A DNA stretch of 63,573 bases, the filler included, from Rhabdomonas costata (lineage: Eukaryota), in NCBI GenBank assembly GCA_019059605.1. It is 51 parts of 51 records of this genome, joined end to end, with 100 filler letters (N's around TTAATTAATTAA, not from the genome) between each part and the next. Parts side by side here need not be neighbours in the genome. Positions count along the whole stretch, not along the records: positions 17,486 to 18,634 come from JAHMHO010026211.1; 50 more parts are not named here. One strand, 5' to 3'. This document shows positions 16,239 to 50,797 of the stretch, one piece after another (positions within the stretch are counted from its first letter, which is position 1; each line of letters begins with the position of its first letter). The notes under the pieces are model-generated. The model worked only from the letters and a program-made list of their open reading frames with translations. It ran no database searches and had not been told where the DNA came from. Made by a program: the position numbers and the translations under genes.

Positions 16239-16481
16239 TGGTGATGATGACGACGGCAGAGAATGCACCCATCCAACCCAATTTGGAAAATGACCATGCT
16301 AAACGCCAGTATTTAGCAGGAACCATAATCTGAAGGTATGTTCAATTACAATCATAACTCTCCTCTAGCTGCAACTTAACATACCTTCAGATTATGGTTC
16401 CTGCTAAATACTGGCGTTTAGCATGGTCATTTTCCAAATTGGGTTGGATGGGTGCATTCTCTGCCGTCGTCATCATCACCA
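16239..16481. repeat. Perfect 104-bp inverted repeat at contig start (arms 16239-16342 / 16378-16481); probable amplification fold-back
   Basis: Exact reverse complement with a 35-nt loop; the outer arm ends at the contig edge. Confidence 0.9.
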
Positions 16482-17485: not shown

Positions 17486-18634
17486 TGTTGGGTGTGTTGG
17501 GAGGCGGCCGGGCGGGTGGACGTCCTTGTGCGGAGCAAGGTCAAGTTGGGTCACCAGCTGAACCTGATGGGTTCGTGGGTGCTTTTCTGAAACAAAAGCT
17601 TTTCTTGATATCTGTGTGAAGTCCTTGTTCGAGCATCTGAGGGGGGAGGATTCCCTTATAAAGCAAGCAAAGCAGATGTCCGTGTCCATCACTTTTATAT
17701 TATACTGCTTTTATGCCATGGCCGGAAGTTGTGGGGAACCACCTCCCCATTTGTATGTGGGGTCGCTTATCGCATTGCCAAAGCTCAGATCGAGGTCGAG
17801 ATGGGAGCTTCCGGGAGCTTCCGGGTTTACCCGCCCGCCGGCCTACAGGTCGGCTGAATCAACAGTATACCATATACAGGGAACCCCGTATGGGCAGAGG
17901 CTGCCTTGGGGATACCGTATGGGCAAAGATCGGTGCATTATGCTGGACTCGCACGATGTGCAATGTTGGGACGCGTGTGTGGTGGTGGGGTCCCTCCGAG
18001 GCTGGATTCCCCGACGGGGCGGGGTCGATCGTCCGACCGTCCGCTAGCTTCGACCTGTCTGAGCCTGGAGCATGCAGCCGTTGAATACTCTCGCAGTCTT
18101 TGACCTGGGTCATCAAGTCGTCGTTAACTGCAAAACGGCACCACCAAGATTTTGCCCTCAGCCTGCACTCACTCACTCTGGGCGCGTTACTACTTCCAGA
18201 AGTGCCTTGTGACCTTGCCGCCGTGTTCCGGTAAGCCCACCCCACCAGCCTTTTGTCTTTCTTTTTAACAGAGAGCAATACCTTTTTCCACAAGAACGTT
18301 CTCATGAACAACTTCGTTGTGGCCTACTACGAGTGGCTGCCGTTTACCACGGAGGCTTTACTGAGCGTGCCAGACACCATCTCTTCTTCTTTGTTAGCTT
18401 GGGCCCCGAACAATGCCATGGCAGTTAGTACGCTGGGACCATGGCTGTTCTCTGTAGACTTCAACAAAACGGTCTGCAATGACACGGTCCACTTTCCCGG
18501 AAGCAATTGCTCGGTTTTCGGCGAAGAGCTCTACCCCCTGGACAGCAACTACAAGCCGATATGGAATTCTCCCACCATACTCAACCTCCCCTACAACCAA
18601 CTGGAAGACATCTACTGGAAGACGGGCCCCCTGG
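17486..18634 (+). CDS. Hypothetical protein, possibly a receptor ectodomain (exons 17486-17570, 18162-18230, 18272-18634)
   Basis: In-frame splicing EAAGRVDVLVRSKVKLGHQLNLM|ACTHSLWARYYFQKCLVTLPPCS|ESNTFFHKNVLMNN...; Cys residues and N-x-S/T sequons (NKT, NDT, NCS). Confidence 0.55.
17783..18066 (+). other. Nonconventional-intron-like stem-loop element (284 nt) nested in GT-AG intron 17571-18161
   Basis: 5' GCTCAGA-tcg-AGGTCGAG pairs with 3' TTCGACCT-g-TCTGAGC-ct|G; CAG at +4..+6, CTG at -8..-6, 2-nt 3' overhang, Y|R 3' junction. Confidence 0.65.
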
Positions 18635-34711: not shown

Positions 34712-34866
34712 TTGTTGTTCCCTTTAACCAGGGGCTCCACACGATATTTCTTTTTGTGCAGTTTTTGTCCGAGCAGATCGTGAATAGATCGTGCTGTAAG
34801 TGATCAGTTGGTGCCGAAATTCGCATCAGAATATCGTGTGGAGCCCCTGGTTAAAGGGAACAACAA
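34712..34866. repeat. Perfect 37-bp inverted repeat at contig end (34712-34748 / 34830-34866); probable fold-back artefact
   Basis: Exact reverse complement ending at the contig edge. Confidence 0.88.
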
Positions 34867-40233: not shown

Positions 40234-41058
40234 GAAAGAGCTTCGTCGGTGCCAAGGTTGCCGAGACCATCACCAGGCTGAGGCAGAGCAGTGCGTCGTC
40301 GTCCACTCCATTCCCTCCTGTGGTGTGCATCGCTCAGTCGCTCAGCTCATCTGTGGCGAATTATTTCAACTTGCCCGCTGCCTTGCGACTTTTAGCTGAG
40401 GCACTTCCCTTCCAGCTTTCTAGTATCCTCGTTTGCTGTGCACACGAAGGCCTCGCTCATTCTTACTTCTTCTTCTTCCTTTCGAGAGCCCGATCCGCAC
40501 GTGCTCGTGCAGGTTAGACTGACCTTTTCAAACGTTTTTGCACAGTTCCGTACCATTTCGCTCCTTGTGGTTGTCAAAACTTTTACCGGCTGTTTTTTTA
40601 CAGGTGGTCGTGACATACAAGAACCATGCCCTGGATGAGTTTCTCATGCGGTGCTTGCCCTTCACCAGCAACGTGTGCACACCTCCTGCTTGGAAAGAAT
40701 TTCCAATCCGAATGTGTGGCGAGAATTGCGAGTTGGTTACCACAGCGGCGGGATTTTTCAGAGCGGCCCTCCATTACGCAAACTTTTCTTTTGTTTCTTA
40801 TCTGAGCTTCTTTCCCCCTCCTTTTTTTTACCTTTTATTTCTTCTCCGGTGTGAATGGTGTTTTATCATTTGCGACGTCCGCAATTTCTTTTCGGTGCGC
40901 CTTGTTGACTGTTCTTCTTTCATTTTGATCCGTCCTTGAGGTCTTGTTTGTGTGACCGTTGAGCACACGGATGCAGAACAATGTTTTTCGCCTGGCTCCT
41001 TTGCGACCCCCGTCACTGCAGGTGGTTCGCGTGGGTGGCAACTCGAAGTCCAAGGAGC
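40234..41058 (+). CDS. ZNFX1: ZNFX1-like (UPF1/NAM7-family SF1) helicase fragment (exons 40234-40290, 40604-40672, 41022-~41058, probably one more mini-exon)
   Basis: (G)KSFVGAKVAE, VVVTYKNHALDEFL and VVRVGGNSKS match ZNFX1 GKT.VG.KI, VVCYTNHALDQFL and IVRVGGRS. Confidence 0.8.
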
Positions 41059-41102
41059 CAGGCGAAAAACATTGTTCTGCATCCGTGTGCTCAACGGTCA
41101 CA
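40951..41102. repeat. Perfect 51-bp inverted repeat at contig end (40951-41001 / 41052-41102); fold-back artefact
   Basis: The second arm starts inside the helicase exon at AAGGAG microhomology and replaces its continuation. Confidence 0.92.
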
Positions 41103-42459
41103 AAAACAAAACNNNNNNNNNNNNNNNNNNNNNNNNNNNNNNNNNNNNNNNNNNNNTTAATTAATTAANNNNNNNNNNNNNNNNNNNNNNNNNNNNNNNN
41201 NNNNNNNNNNNNTGTGTTGGGTCACAAAAAAGGAAACGCCGTTCCCCCCCTTCAAAAGCAGCGGCGCAATTTTCCCCGCACACACGATGGTGTCAACGAC
41301 AACAATTATTAGCGTATATGTCAGGCTGATTCAGGATATAGTTGGCGGGTTTTCAACAGTAAAATGAGAATGCCTCGTTTTGGCTCAAACGAGGTGGCGA
41401 CAATCTCGTTAACTTAATCCCACCCCAACCGAACAGCCATCGATGACAATCGACAGCATCGGATGCAATTGCATGGAGCCCCTGTGTACCACCACTCAAA
41501 CCAGCCAAAAAGGTTGTGCATTAGAAAAGAGCCAGAGGTTATTCAGAACTAGTGGTTGAAAAATTTTAGTTCTTCTTTTGTGCAACAAGGTTGAATAAGC
41601 ATATCCAGCAATCCCACTTTAACTGAGCGTCCACGCTGCAGCTGCCAGAGCTGAGAAAAACCGGGCAAAGCTTACAAGGAAATTGGGGAGGTGCTCCGGC
41701 ATGCAAAGTTTTGCGTCTTCTTTTGCATGCGGAGAGAGAGAAGCTGCACAGGCACGTAGAAGGAGGGTTATCGCACAAAGACGAACAGGCAAAAAAAAGC
41801 GGAGGTGGGAGTGGGAGGAAGAAAACCACAGGTAAAGCCACAACAATGAGGAAGTACAGGCAAAATAAACAAAGTGGAACAACAGTCACAGAACACAATC
41901 GCAGCGGGAGCCGCACACCCCCAGATCCTCAGTGACCCAATGCACAGACCCTTTGCCACAAGAAGACCACGCACGCACACACAAGCGCAGCACAGGCGGT
42001 AGGCGGAAACTGTTCGCGCCCCCTGCCGCAGACGTTCTGGAAAGGGGTGGGAGGGGCAGCCGTGTCAACACGCTGGACTGGACACGATGCGCACAGCGTC
42101 CTTCACTGCAGCCAAAGGGGCAGGTCGGATTTCGCCGCGGGCTTCGCGCCACCTGAAGAACGATCGGCCAATAACATCCCGAAACATCGCTGACTGCGAA
42201 AAGAAAAGACAGCAAACAAAATCATTGTCTTTTCTCAGGGACATAAAATCTGGAAGCTGTGCCCGTTTAATAACACTGACGGGCATCTTTTAAACCTATT
42301 TGGCTGCATATTCAACGTTACCACAGCGCAGTGTCCGCAGTGTCTAAATACAAAAAAACNNNNNNNNNNNNNNNNNNNNNNNNNNNNNNNNNNNNNNNNN
42401 NNNTTAATTAATTAANNNNNNNNNNNNNNNNNNNNNNNNNNNNNNNNNNNNNNNNNNNN

Positions 42460-48598: not shown

Positions 48599-50102
48599 CA
48601 CNNNNNNNNNNNNNNNNNNNNNNNNNNNNNNNNNNNNNNNNNNNNTTAATTAATTAANNNNNNNNNNNNNNNNNNNNNNNNNNNNNNNNNNNNNNNNNNN
48701 NGGGGTTGGGGAAGAAAACATCGCGGTGGACACTTCCCTTATTCAGTTTTTTCTGGTGAAGTCATAAGTTGGACCAATCTGATTAACACTGCATAGCAGT
48801 TTCTCCCGTGCAAACCCAAATTCTGGCCAAAATGTTGATGTGGCTGAGGTAAGATTTCTTGCTTTAAAACACCAATAACATCGATTCACGATGTTTCTCG
48901 TGGTAAAAAAAAATCTCCAAAGATGTCCGTATCCGTCATTTTGGATGCGTTAGATGCAACCCACAGCGCCAATAGGAGGTCAAAAGAGAACGCGGAGGGC
49001 ATCTTTGCGCGGACCGATCATCACGGGGCGTCGTGCGGTGTCCGGGGAGTCGAACCCAAACATCAAGGGGAGAGCGTGCGAGGAGTTCACCACTTTGAAG
49101 CAGTACAGCATCAGCGCCGTCGAAGCCGCAGAGCACACGCTCTGCTTCCTAATTCCAGCAAAGAGGTAAATGCGGAAGGGGGGGGGGGCACAAGTTTTTT
49201 TGCTGGCCCACGTTGACAGAGTACAACCCCTGAAAGGAGACTGCGGGGCATGGAGCTCCTCCAACGGCGAAGGTGTTCCAGTTAATATGGAAAGTGGCGC
49301 GGGGGTGAAGGAGGAAGGGCACCGCTGAAATTTAAGCAAAGCATTTTCGAAATTCGTTTCCGGACCCGTTGTAAAAACGTTTAGCACCGCCAAATGCTTA
49401 GTATTGTGAAACGGTCAGCACTGCAAGACGTCTTTTTGGCGCTTTTATTCTTTTTGGCGGATTTTATTGGAATTGCCGCTGCTGGGCATTTTAGTTGCCG
49501 AGGCCAGATCGGATGGCTTGAGACATTCCATGGGGTGGGCGATGCTACATTTGGCTTTCGAAACGTTCTGCAGTACAAAAAGACCGAACTGGTAACTTCT
49601 TTGGTGATGTTATTTTTAGGGACAGAAATTCGGTAAACTAAGTTTACAACCACTAAGTGCATATTTTAGCAAACGGTTTTTCTGCCCCTAGACACACATA
49701 ATTTAATATAAGTGGGGAAAGGAAATTATGACCGTTTAGCAGTGCTAACCGCTTAGCGCCCCAAAGAAACTTCAAGCCCAAGCGTTTTGCGCCCCTCCTT
49801 TCAGAGGTTTTGCCTACTATGACGCTGAAGGTTGCCCCTCCCCACCACANNNNNNNNNNNNNNNNNNNNNNNNNNNNNNNNNNNNNNNNNNNNTTAATTA
49901 ATTAANNNNNNNNNNNNNNNNNNNNNNNNNNNNNNNNNNNNNNNNNNNNGGGTGTGGGTGGTAACCGTTACCACTGGTAACAGTCTTCTTATTTTGAAAA
50001 GTTGCTAAAGGACCCCAGGTCACGTCCCCGCCCCAGGCGCCCGCTCCGGTCCGCCTCGGACTATTTCGATAGGTCGAACCCATGCTCAATCTTGATTTAA
50101 AA

Positions 50103-50103
<1 letters not shown>

Positions 50104-50147
<44 letters not shown>
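50104..50147. repeat. (CA)n microsatellite; other simple repeats at ~12770 (TG), ~35306 (TTGC), ~43563 (CCCTCG), ~46626 (TG), ~54138 (CA)
   Basis: Directly visible. Confidence 0.95.
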
Positions 50148-50148
<1 letters not shown>

Positions 50149-50248
50149 TTGATCCACTGTCTGGGGTATGGCAAAGAAGAGGCACGAAGGAAACCCACCC
50201 ATCCGCACGCACACTCTCACAGGTACACAGCAGAATATCAAAAGGCAC

Positions 50249-50797
50249 CAACTGGGATGGGCTCGTGGTATGTCACGCGATAGACCCGGCACTCCTTCCG
50301 CCCAGCTGCCGCCAGGACACGGGAGTCCGGACCCATTCCACTGTACACCATCCCTGCGCGACGTGAAACCCAACCCCCGATAAACGCGAACAAAGAGAAA
50401 GCATCAGACGAGCTCACTCGGATTGCATTTCACTCTCCAGTCAACACAGGTGCAACTTATTTTGCAGAGCCCGGGCATTCTGGTGTGCCAGTAGTGCGTT
50501 CACGACGAGAAGAAATCAGGGGGGGTCAAAGAAATCGGAATTTCAGTTTCCACAGGGAGCGTTGAGCGGCAGGGGCACACCGACGTGCTCGTCCAGGGGA
50601 CTGATCTTCTGTACGGAGCTAGGATCCATCAGCGGAGTGGCCATCTTCTTCTCCGTGGCCAGCACAACCCCATTGGTGGCCTTGATTGCCAAGCTAGTGC
50701 TGCCCTGGCCCACCGCGGCGATGGCGTGGTCGAGCTGCCCCAACTTCCCCGAAGGGCTGAACGTGGTCAGGCTGAAACTGTACCCGCTTTCCCCCAT
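50249..50797 (-). CDS. PSMA2: 20S proteasome subunit alpha-2 (exons 50797-50581, 50353-50249)
   Basis: [25 protein letters not shown]...[14 protein letters not shown]...[16 protein letters not shown]...YHEPIPV. Confidence 0.96.

What the first reader, a model, noticed from the sequence alone, without database searches (positions are those of the whole stretch)
17783..18066. Euglenid-type nonconventional intron nested inside a conventional GT-AG intron (candidate mixed twintron or mobile intron)
Seen: exons 17486-17570 and 18162-18230 join in frame across a GT(17571)...AG(18161) intron. Inside it lies a GC-rich 284-nt block whose ends pair: GCTCAGA (17783-89) with TCTGAGC (18058-64), and AGGTCGAG (17793-800) with TTCGACCT (18049-56). 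CAG sits at +4..+6 and CTG at -8..-6, two 3' nucleotides are left unpaired, and the 3' junction is T|G. Established: this is the end geometry of euglenid non-GT-AG nonconventional nuclear introns, which have been reported to be released as circles by a mechanism that is still unresolved. Inference: one such element sitting in an intron, with no coding pressure to excise it, suggests these introns insert as mobile units anywhere in a transcript and form two-mechanism twintrons. One deviation: the base before the element is A rather than the usual pyrimidine. I cannot confirm novelty against the literature.
Basis: partly seen in the sequence, partly recalled or inferred. Interest (0 to 1): 0.8.

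Follow-up and report, generated by a model that had tools for sequence, protein, structure and literature searches.

The report
Stem-bounded block inside a euglenid intron
A 284-base GC-rich block whose ends pair like those of a euglenid "nonconventional" intron really does sit inside an ordinary GT-AG intron of a euglenid gene, but such stems are about as common as chance predicts here, and nothing shows that the block is cut out separately or is mobile.

Summary
The sequence facts are right. The block 17783-18066 has the stated paired ends (7 bp, then 7 Watson-Crick pairs plus one G·U), CAG at +4..+6, CTG at -8..-6, and T|G at the 3' junction. It meets the published Euglena nonconventional-intron code, and it does so on both strands.

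The organism is a euglenid. The closest relatives of the host gene are two Rhabdomonas costata proteins.

The block lies inside a conventional intron. However, 6 of 6 homologous proteins join exon A (ends 17570) directly to 18272. The host intron is therefore most likely 17571-18271 (701 nt).

Statistics are weak:
- With G·U pairs allowed, the window holds 55 code-satisfying two-helix stems against 51±7 in shuffles.
- By energy, 19% of shuffled introns and 43% of shuffled contigs do as well.
- Only a Watson-Crick criterion fitted after the fact singles out the locus: 1 of 2000 shuffled introns, but 30% of shuffled windows.

I found no second copy, no target-site duplication and no RNA data. 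The block is far from the host splice signals, so this is not a strict twintron. A MITE-like origin for these introns is already in print.

Best reading: a passenger stem, fortuitous or a relic, removed with the host intron (0.55). A genuine nested nonconventional element remains possible (about 0.3).

The parts
17486..17570 (+). Exon A of a euglenid receptor-like gene, cut by the contig edge. It ends ...CTG ATG G.
   Evidence: tblastn: residues 8-30 of P0001 and P0006 match at 22 of 23 up to the M codon at 17567-69, and the match breaks at 17571.
17571..18271 (+). Host conventional intron, 701 nt. It runs GT...AG and has a T-rich pyrimidine tract before 18271.
   Evidence: Joining 17570 to 18272 gives ...HQLNLM-ESNTFF..., as in 6 of 6 homologues. 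The terminal 10+10 nt pairing energy is 0.0 kcal/mol.
17783..18066 (+). The 284-nt GC-rich block with paired ends (the finding).
   Evidence: It is the only sense-strand hit in the intron under all four geometry criteria tried.
17783..17800 (+). 5' arm: GCTCAGA, then TCG, then AGGTCGAG. CAG is at 17786-88.
18049..18064 (+). 3' arm: TTCGACCT, then G, then TCTGAGC. CTG is at 18059-61, and 18065-66 are unpaired.
17803..17825 (+). Short tandem repeat inside the block: 10-nt unit GGGAGCTTCC, 2.3 copies.
18162..18230 (+). It is unsupported by homology.
   Evidence: The in-frame join is shown. The 23 residues are absent from P0001, P0002, P0003, P0004, P0006 and P0127. It would need a 41-nt second intron; GT/AG introns of that size are reported in E. 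gracilis (PMC2920757 abstract).
18272..18634 (+). Exon B, which runs off the contig end.
   Evidence: 71-73% identity over 121-123 residues to R. costata P0001 and P0006.

Best explanation
The locus is an ordinary spliceosomal GT-AG intron: 17571-18271, or 17571-18161 plus 18231-18271 if the cassette exon is real. It lies in a euglenid-specific receptor-like gene. Inside it sits a compositionally distinct 284-nt block bracketed by a 7+8 bp inverted repeat. The repeat happens to meet the Euglena nonconventional-intron code.

I take the stem to be a passenger. It is either a fortuitous inverted repeat in GC-rich intron DNA or the relic of an old insertion. It leaves the pre-mRNA together with the host intron as part of the lariat, and no separate excision step is needed.

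Shown: the sequence geometry, the nesting, the host gene model and the chance frequencies. Inferred: that it is not separately processed.
For: 1. The host intron is conventional, and the exon junction is fixed by 6 of 6 homologues.
2. The block is 212 nt from the 5' splice site and 205 nt from the 3' splice site. It interrupts no splice signal.
3. Code-satisfying stems are not enriched:
   - 55 in the window against 51.2±7.0 in shuffles.
   - By energy, 18.8% of 500 shuffled copies of this intron and 43% of 765 shuffled contigs have one at least as good.
   - This same contig holds four candidates with equal or better predicted energy. Three of them start inside conserved exon A or span its 3' end (17506, 17510, 17552), so they cannot be introns.
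4. The code is met on both strands.
5. There is no target-site duplication, no second copy or second TIR in the window, and no hit in metagenome contigs.
6. All 4 introns that I could delimit at both ends by protein similarity are GT-AG: the host intron, proteasome alpha-2 intron 1, a kinase and a flippase. For the last three the exon ends were placed by eye and from recalled family sequences. This agrees with R. costata, where 29 of 29 complete introns in six genes were conventional and only 7 putative nonconventional introns were found (PMC8219788).
7. In Euglena, nonconventional introns are removed after conventional ones (PMC11282704 and PMC8219788 passages). A nested element would therefore usually leave with the host intron first.
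Against: - The Watson-Crick-only geometry (7 bp, a small loop, then 7 bp) occurs in only 1 of 2000 shuffles of this intron. The classical geometry (all three spacer bases paired, exact CAG) occurs in 0 of 2000.
- In the real window this locus is the only Watson-Crick 7+7 hit.
- Its 10+10-nt terminal pairing energy is -10.7 kcal/mol. That is matched by 0.44% of 5000 random position pairs and lies at the strong end of the range reported for E. gracilis nonconventional introns (PMC11170887 section 10).
- The arms coincide with both edges of a GC and CpG shift, as an insertion would.
- The published code was sufficient for splicing of fully synthetic introns in E. gracilis. Even a fortuitous stem might therefore be excised to some degree.
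Confidence: 0.55

Rival explanations
1. The block is a genuine nonconventional-intron-type (MITE-like) element that inserted into a conventional intron. The nonconventional pathway can recognise it and release it as a circle, at least from transcripts or lariats that persist long enough. That would make it a nested, two-mechanism intron, though not an obligatory twintron.
For: - All sequence rules of the published code are met.
- The terminal stem is kept in the MFE and centroid folds.
- Terminal pairing energy is -10.7 kcal/mol, against 0.0 for the host intron.
- The Watson-Crick geometry is rare in shuffles of this intron: 1 of 2000.
- The block is bounded by a GC/CpG shift.
- The organism is a euglenid.
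- Natural and synthetic nonconventional introns are portable between sites in E. gracilis.
Against: - Window-wide, the geometry is at chance level. 30 of 100 shuffled windows give at least one Watson-Crick 7+7 hit.
- The code is also met on the minus strand.
- There is no target-site duplication, no other copy in 58 kb, and no copy in the metagenome scan.
- The genome looks poor in nonconventional introns.
- The block is GC-rich, whereas PMC3935182 describes MITEs as AT-rich.
- There are no RNA data.
- It is unknown whether the code defined in E. agilis and E. gracilis holds in this species.
Confidence: 0.3
2. The stem is a selected structural element of the conventional intron. It loops out 284 nt and brings the 5' splice site and the branch/3' region closer, shortening the effective intron from 701 to about 417 nt.
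For: The stem persists in the fold of the full intron. It sits roughly centrally, 212 and 205 nt from the two intron ends.
Against: - There is no conservation data.
- The intron as a whole is no more structured than shuffles: z = +0.97, and 16 of 20 shuffles fold at least as well.
- A 701-nt intron needs no such help in most eukaryotes (general knowledge, not tested here).
Confidence: 0.08
3. The inverted repeat is an artefact of amplification or assembly, of the kind that produced long fold-back repeats at several contig ends in this window.
For: Three contigs carry 37-112-nt, 97-100% inverted repeats that lie within 0-4 nt of a contig end. If the assembly is the R. costata draft, its DNA was amplified before sequencing (PMC8219788).
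Against: The arms here are short (7+8 bp), imperfect, 248 nt apart and in the interior of the contig. That is unlike the long, near-perfect repeats at contig ends.
Confidence: 0.03

Closest known systems
Euglenid nonconventional (NC) nuclear introns (Milanowski et al. 2014, PMC3935182; Nomura et al. 2025, PMC12501133; Gao et al. 2024, PMC11170887)
   Same: - Non-GT/AG ends (GC...CT).
- CAG at +4..+6 and CTG at -8..-6.
- A 3-nt 5' spacer and a 5-nt 3' spacer, with a purine after the 3' end.
- A terminal stem that leaves two 3' bases unpaired.
- No pyrimidine tract.
- Strong 10+10-nt terminal pairing energy of -10.7 kcal/mol.
   Different: - It does not interrupt an exon. Both flanks are themselves intron, so it is not an intron of the mRNA.
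- There is no evidence of excision.
- The upstream base is A and the third downstream base is A. Milanowski 2014 reports Y and C there.
- It lacks the wider E. gracilis consensus, CCAGG and CCTG.
- The code is also met on the opposite strand.
MITE-like elements and introner elements, proposed as sources of new introns (PMC11282704; PMC3935182)
   Same: Short (under 1 kb), non-coding, with imperfect terminal inverted repeats of about 15 bp. It sits in a gene's intron, where PMC3935182 says MITEs are preferentially located.
   Different: - No target-site duplication.
- No further copy found, though only 58 kb could be searched.
- 61.6% GC rather than AT-rich.
Twintrons: Euglena plastid group II/III twintrons and fungal spliceosomal 'stwintrons' (seen only in search listings and abstract starts)
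   Same: One intervening sequence nested in another.
   Different: In those cases the inner intron interrupts a sequence needed for splicing of the outer one and must be removed first. Here the inner block is more than 200 nt from either splice site, and its removal is not required.
'Overlapping' intron pairs in E. gracilis (59 events; PMC11170887 section 11)
   Same: Two alternative excision units share genomic space in a euglenid gene.
   Different: Those pairs are defined from mRNAs and change the mature transcript. Here the inner unit would leave no trace in the mRNA.

Membership tests
Euglenid nonconventional intron | It is an intron of the mRNA: the flanking sequence is retained in the mature transcript and the element is absent from it. 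| tested here: not met
   Homologues join 17570 directly to 18272. Both flanks of the block (17571-17782 and 18067-18271) are therefore intronic. There is no transcript of this gene itself.
Euglenid nonconventional intron | 5'-N3-CDG ... CH'G-N5-6|R, with D and H' complementary (PMC12501133). | tested here: met
   GCT-CAG at 17783-88. CTG-AGCCT|G at 18059-67. It is also met on the minus strand, 18064 to 17780.
Euglenid nonconventional intron | [quoted passage not shown] | tested here: met
   A:U next to the motif, then a bulge, then 8 bp. The stem is present in MFE and centroid folds. The 10+U7+10 energy is -10.7 kcal/mol.
Euglenid nonconventional intron | Borders other than GT/GC-AG, and no 3' pyrimidine tract. 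| tested here: inconclusive
   The 3' border, CT, is not AG, and no pyrimidine run precedes 18066. The 5' dinucleotide is GC, which the conventional GT/C class also allows, so only the 3' end is clearly nonconventional.
Euglenid nonconventional intron | Pyrimidine at the end of the upstream sequence and C at the third downstream position (Milanowski 2014). | tested here: not met
   17782 is A and 18069 is A. PMC12501133 found no requirement on the donor side.
Euglenid nonconventional intron | Excised after conventional introns and released as a full-length circle. | not testable with these tools
Euglenid nonconventional intron | The host is a euglenid (or diplonemid). | tested here: met
   The host gene's only close relatives are R. 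costata proteins, at 71-73% identity. For the proteasome alpha-2 exon, the best named hits are E. gracilis and Eutreptiella gymnastica at 89%.
MITE-like transposable element | Terminal inverted repeats. | tested here: met
   The 18-nt and 16-nt arms form 15 Watson-Crick pairs plus 1 G·U, with an asymmetric loop.
MITE-like transposable element | Target-site duplication flanking the inverted repeats. | tested here: not met
   The left flank ends ...GCCAAA and the right flank starts CTGGAG. The only shared base is a single G, which allows a 1-nt slide.
MITE-like transposable element | Multiple dispersed copies. | tested here: inconclusive
   There are 0 further copies in the 58 kb of the window (blastn; TIR pattern with up to 2 mismatches). 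A two-TIR pattern scan of metagenome contigs gave 0 hits. The rest of the genome is not available.
Twintron (strict sense) | The inner intron interrupts a splice signal of the outer intron, so it must be removed first. | tested here: not met
   The block begins 212 nt after the GT at 17571 and ends 205 nt before the AG at 18270-71, or 95 nt before the AG at 18160-61.
Conventional spliceosomal intron (the host) | GT...AG borders, a 3' pyrimidine tract, and an exon junction confirmed by the protein. | tested here: met
   G|GTTCGT ... CTTTTGTCTTTCTTTTTAACAG|AG. The junction reproduces LNLM-ESNTFF as in P0001 and P0006. Terminal pairing energy is 0.0.

The most novel reading that the evidence does not exclude
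The block is a live nonconventional-type element that landed in a spliceosomal intron. The nonconventional machinery cuts it out of the pre-mRNA or the lariat as a 284-nt circle. This would show directly that these elements insert anywhere in transcribed DNA, without regard to coding sequence, and that the two euglenid splicing systems can act on nested substrates.
Probability: 0.15. Interest if true: 0.5.

Novelty: new member of a known kind. Interest (0 to 1): 0.22.

Why it matters
A real instance would be a small but concrete piece of support for the published hypothesis that euglenid nonconventional introns come from MITE-like insertions. Such a copy would sit where nothing selects for its removal.

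The idea itself is not new. One instance with chance-level statistics does not test it.

The more useful point from this work is methodological. The genetically defined code plus a two-helix stem occurs about 50 times in 58 kb of both real and shuffled sequence. Sequence signature alone therefore cannot identify such elements. Chromosome-level E. gracilis or E. agilis assemblies with RNA data are the right place to count them.

Tried and rejected
Tools that gave no data:
- Whole-genome search for copies: no genome is held for this window.

Searches that found nothing:
- Rfam found nothing in the window at gathering scores, and nothing in the contig at E ≤ 1. There is no sign of a snoRNA or other known RNA in the block.
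- Pfam found nothing on the three long ORFs that cross the block, and nothing on exon B.
- The search for homologous proteins with 'longer' lengths on exon B: 97 candidates, none significant.
- A metagenome scan with a two-TIR pattern gave 0 hits.

Other results:
- A metagenome scan with the protein alignment gave 1 locus of 119 pattern matches. That locus, L001, is intron-less across the junction, so it gives no orthologous intron to compare.
- P0005 (1436 aa, repetitive, 27% identity over 35 residues) was dropped as not homologous.

Rejected ideas:
- That the window is E. gracilis: its proteasome alpha-2 is only 89% identical. The species stays unresolved. The R. costata draft fits in contig size, GC content and the gene family, but no R. 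costata proteasome alpha-2 entry appeared among the hits.
- That the apparent excess of strong stems in the energy scan signals many nonconventional elements. The counts are 80 against 44±8 at ≤ -25.3 kcal/mol, and 14 against 0.3 at ≤ -35. However, 13 of the 14 strongest lie in three fold-back repeats at contig ends.

Full report
**What the window is.**
The 63,573-base window is not one locus. It is 51 unrelated contigs of 1145-1150 bp joined by 50 linkers of the form N44-TTAATTAATTAA-N44. The finding lies in the contig 17486-18634. No whole genome is held for it. Everything below therefore rests on the 58 kb of the window, on protein relatives and on papers.

**Check of the observation.**
All stated letters are at the stated places.
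- GCTCAGA (17783-89) pairs with TCTGAGC (18058-64).
- AGGTCGAG (17793-800) pairs with TTCGACCT (18049-56), as 7 Watson-Crick pairs plus one G·U.
- CAG is at +4..+6 and CTG at -8..-6. Bases 18065-66 are unpaired, and the junction is T|G.
- GT (17571-72) and AG (18160-61) are present, and the two proposed exons do join in frame without a stop.

The block is 61.6% GC with CpG observed/expected of 0.94. The intron parts on either side are 45.8% and 53.2% GC, with CpG ratios of 0.55 and 0.72. The terminal stem is part of the MFE and centroid structures of the block alone (z = -1.91; 10 of 200 shuffles fold as well). It is also part of both structures for the whole host intron.

**Organism.**
Exon B (18272-18634) has only 5 hits among 1.84 billion representative proteins. 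One of them, P0005, is a repetitive 1436-aa protein that I dropped as unrelated. A second search added P0006. The two closest, P0001 (71% identity) and P0006 (73%), are EukProt entries of Rhabdomonas costata.

A proteasome alpha-2 exon elsewhere in the window (50579-50797, minus strand) is 95% identical to an unnamed Logan protein. It is 89% identical to E. gracilis EG_transcript_22055 and to the Eutreptiella gymnastica protein. The organism is therefore a euglenid, and it is not E. gracilis.

The R. costata draft genome has 143,763 contigs, an N50 of 1194 bp and 51.6% GC, and was made from amplified DNA (PMC8219788, passages and section 7). It fits the contig size and the gene family. However, no R. 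costata proteasome entry appeared among the hits, so I leave the species open.

**Gene model.**
P0001 and P0006 read ...EAAGRVDVLVRSKV(S/N)LGHQLNLM-ESNTFF.... Residues 8-30 match the contig at 17501-17569 (22 of 23 identical), and the match breaks exactly at the GT of 17571. The next residues match from 18271-72 onward.

Joining 17570 to 18272 recreates the split GAG codon and gives LNLM-ESNTFF. The more distant relatives P0002, P0003 and P0004, and a metagenome locus (L001, translated as P0127), are also continuous across this point. So 6 of 6 homologues lack the 23 residues that 18162-18230 would add.

The simplest model is one conventional intron of 701 nt, 17571-18271. It reads G|GTTCGT ... 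CTTTTGTCTTTCTTTTTAACAG|AG.

The 69-nt piece is in frame and has AG| and |GTAAGC borders. The 41-nt second intron it implies is of a size reported for GT/AG introns in E. gracilis (PMC2920757, abstract only).

**Comparison with the published code.**
Nomura et al. [quoted passage not shown] Their findings that bear on this block:
- Natural and fully synthetic 50-bp introns obeying these rules are spliced when knocked into an E. gracilis exon.
- No particular base is needed before the intron.

The block meets every rule.

By the measure of Gao et al. 2024 (PMC11170887, sections 10 and 11 read), the terminal 10+10 nt joined by U7 fold at -10.7 kcal/mol. That is at the strong end of their nonconventional range. 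The host intron gives 0.0, as many conventional introns do. Only 0.44% of 5000 random position pairs in the window reach -10.7.

**Is it more than chance?**
I scanned both strands of all 51 contigs for pairs of sites that meet the code, and compared the counts with dinucleotide-preserving shuffles.

| Test | Real sequence | Shuffles |
|---|---|---|
| Two helices ≥7 bp, loop ≤3×3, G·U allowed (window) | 55 | 51.2±7.0 (60 shuffles) |
| Same, 8+8 (window) | 12 | 8.1±2.5 (100 shuffles) |
| Energy ≤ -25.3 kcal/mol (window) | 80 | 44±8 (15 shuffles) |
| Energy ≤ -35 kcal/mol (window) | 14 | 0.3 |
| Watson-Crick only, 7+7 (window) | this locus only, on both strands | 30 of 100 windows have ≥1 hit |
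| Exact CAG and all spacer bases paired (window) | this locus | 3 of 100 windows |
| Energy (this intron) | - | 18.8% of 500 as good |
| G·U allowed, 7+7 (this intron) | - | 22.6% of 2000 |
| G·U allowed, 8+8 (this intron) | - | 4.3% of 2000 |
| Watson-Crick only, 7+7 (this intron) | - | 0.05% of 2000 |
| Strictest criterion (this intron) | - | 0 of 2000 |

Notes on these tests:
- The energy measure folds the first 22 nt and the last 24 nt of each candidate.
- Of the 12 real hits at 8+8, five lie in one fold-back repeat.
- 13 of the 14 strongest stems by energy lie in three fold-back repeats that abut contig ends.
- 43% of 765 shuffled contigs contain a stem at least as good as this one by energy.
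- The strictest criterion was fitted to the candidate after the fact.

The same contig contains four candidates of equal or better energy. Three of them start inside conserved exon A or span its 3' end, so they cannot be introns.

The fair summary is as follows. The inverted repeat is real and somewhat unusual for this intron. But a reader who scans 58 kb on two strands should expect to meet something like it between 3% and 100% of the time, depending on the criterion. The code is met equally on the minus strand (18064 to 17780), so it gives no evidence of sense-strand function.

**Mobility.**
There is no target-site duplication. The flanks are ...GCCAAA and CTGGAG..., and only a single G is shared. 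No second copy of the block (blastn) or of its TIR (up to 2 mismatches) is present in the window. A two-TIR pattern found nothing in the metagenome collection. With 58 kb of a genome of at least 100 Mb, the absence within the window says little.

**Twintron?**
The block starts 212 nt after the 5' splice site and ends 205 nt before the 3' splice site. It interrupts no signal of the host intron, and its prior removal is not needed.

Nonconventional introns are reported to be removed after conventional ones and to appear as circles. I saw this only as statements in PMC11282704, PMC8219788 and PMC12621601. I did not see the J Mol Biol 2021 circle paper itself. The passages I retrieved from the PLoS Genetics 2018 paper (PMC6221363) showed the RT-PCR pattern that underlies the order of removal. 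If that order holds here, the block would normally leave with the lariat.

**How rich in nonconventional introns is this genome?**
All 4 introns that I could delimit at both ends by protein similarity are GT-AG. They are the host intron, proteasome alpha-2 intron 1, a kinase intron and a flippase intron. For the last three, the exon ends were placed by eye from my knowledge of the families, not by an alignment tool. This resembles R. costata, where 29 of 29 complete introns in six genes were conventional and 7 putative nonconventional introns were found. It does not resemble E. agilis, where 71.8% of introns are nonconventional. It lowers the prior for a nonconventional element.

**Verdict.**
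Most likely (0.55) this is an ordinary spliceosomal intron carrying a passenger inverted repeat, either fortuitous or a relic of an insertion, which is removed with the intron. A genuine nested element of the nonconventional type that is sometimes excised on its own remains possible (0.3). A splicing-helper stem (0.08) and an artefact (0.03) are minor rivals.

**Novelty.**
The MITE-like origin of these introns is already in print (PMC3935182 abstract and passages; PMC4770533; PMC11282704; PMC12501133 Discussion; PMC12621601). My four full-text searches found no report of a nonconventional element nested in a conventional nuclear intron of a euglenid. 'Twintron' in that literature refers to plastid introns. 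Such nesting is an expected corollary of the insertion hypothesis rather than a surprise, and the evidence for this single case is weak.

Noticed in passing
window 1-63573: The window is a chain of 51 unrelated contigs of 1145-1150 bp joined by 50 N44-TTAATTAATTAA-N44 linkers. Any feature that appears to cross a linker is not real, and every 'gene' is cut at about 1.15 kb.
   Followed up: yes
window 16239-16481; 34712-34866; 40941-41112: There are long, near-perfect inverted repeats with arms of 112 nt (97%), 37 nt (100%) and 61 nt (97%). Each lies within 0-4 nt of a contig end. They look like fold-back artefacts of amplification or assembly. They account for 13 of the 14 strongest 'nonconventional-like' stems in the window.
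   Followed up: partly
window 7189-6695, minus strand: This is the strongest code-satisfying stem that is not a contig-end fold-back. It has 17 consecutive pairs (G·U included), the CTG/CAG motif form, a predicted energy of -38.4 kcal/mol, and encloses 495 nt. I did not examine whether it lies in a gene.
   Followed up: no
window 17502-17517 and 17829-17844: A GC-rich stretch of conserved exon A is 88% complementary (14 of 16) to a stretch inside the 284-nt block (pair I2). It gives the best 'code-satisfying' energy in the contig, -31.4 kcal/mol, although it cannot be an intron. It is a useful example of a false positive.
   Followed up: partly
window 17486-18634 (host gene); P0001-P0004, P0006, L001:207-749: The host gene belongs to a small family. 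Only 4 relevant hits turned up among 1.84 billion representatives, plus one more R. costata paralogue and one metagenome contig. The two named close relatives are R. costata proteins; the others come from unnamed ENA or metagenome records. The family shows an N-terminal membrane helix, an invariant FN-x-[TS]-[VI]-CND-x-x-x-FPGS-x-C motif and, in P0002, a second membrane helix. No Pfam family matches.
   Followed up: partly
window 50100-50200 (minus-strand reading) and elsewhere: (TG)n/(CA)n microsatellites occur in several contigs, seen as runs of CVCVCV in translations. They inflate the number of chance stems in shuffled controls.
   Followed up: no
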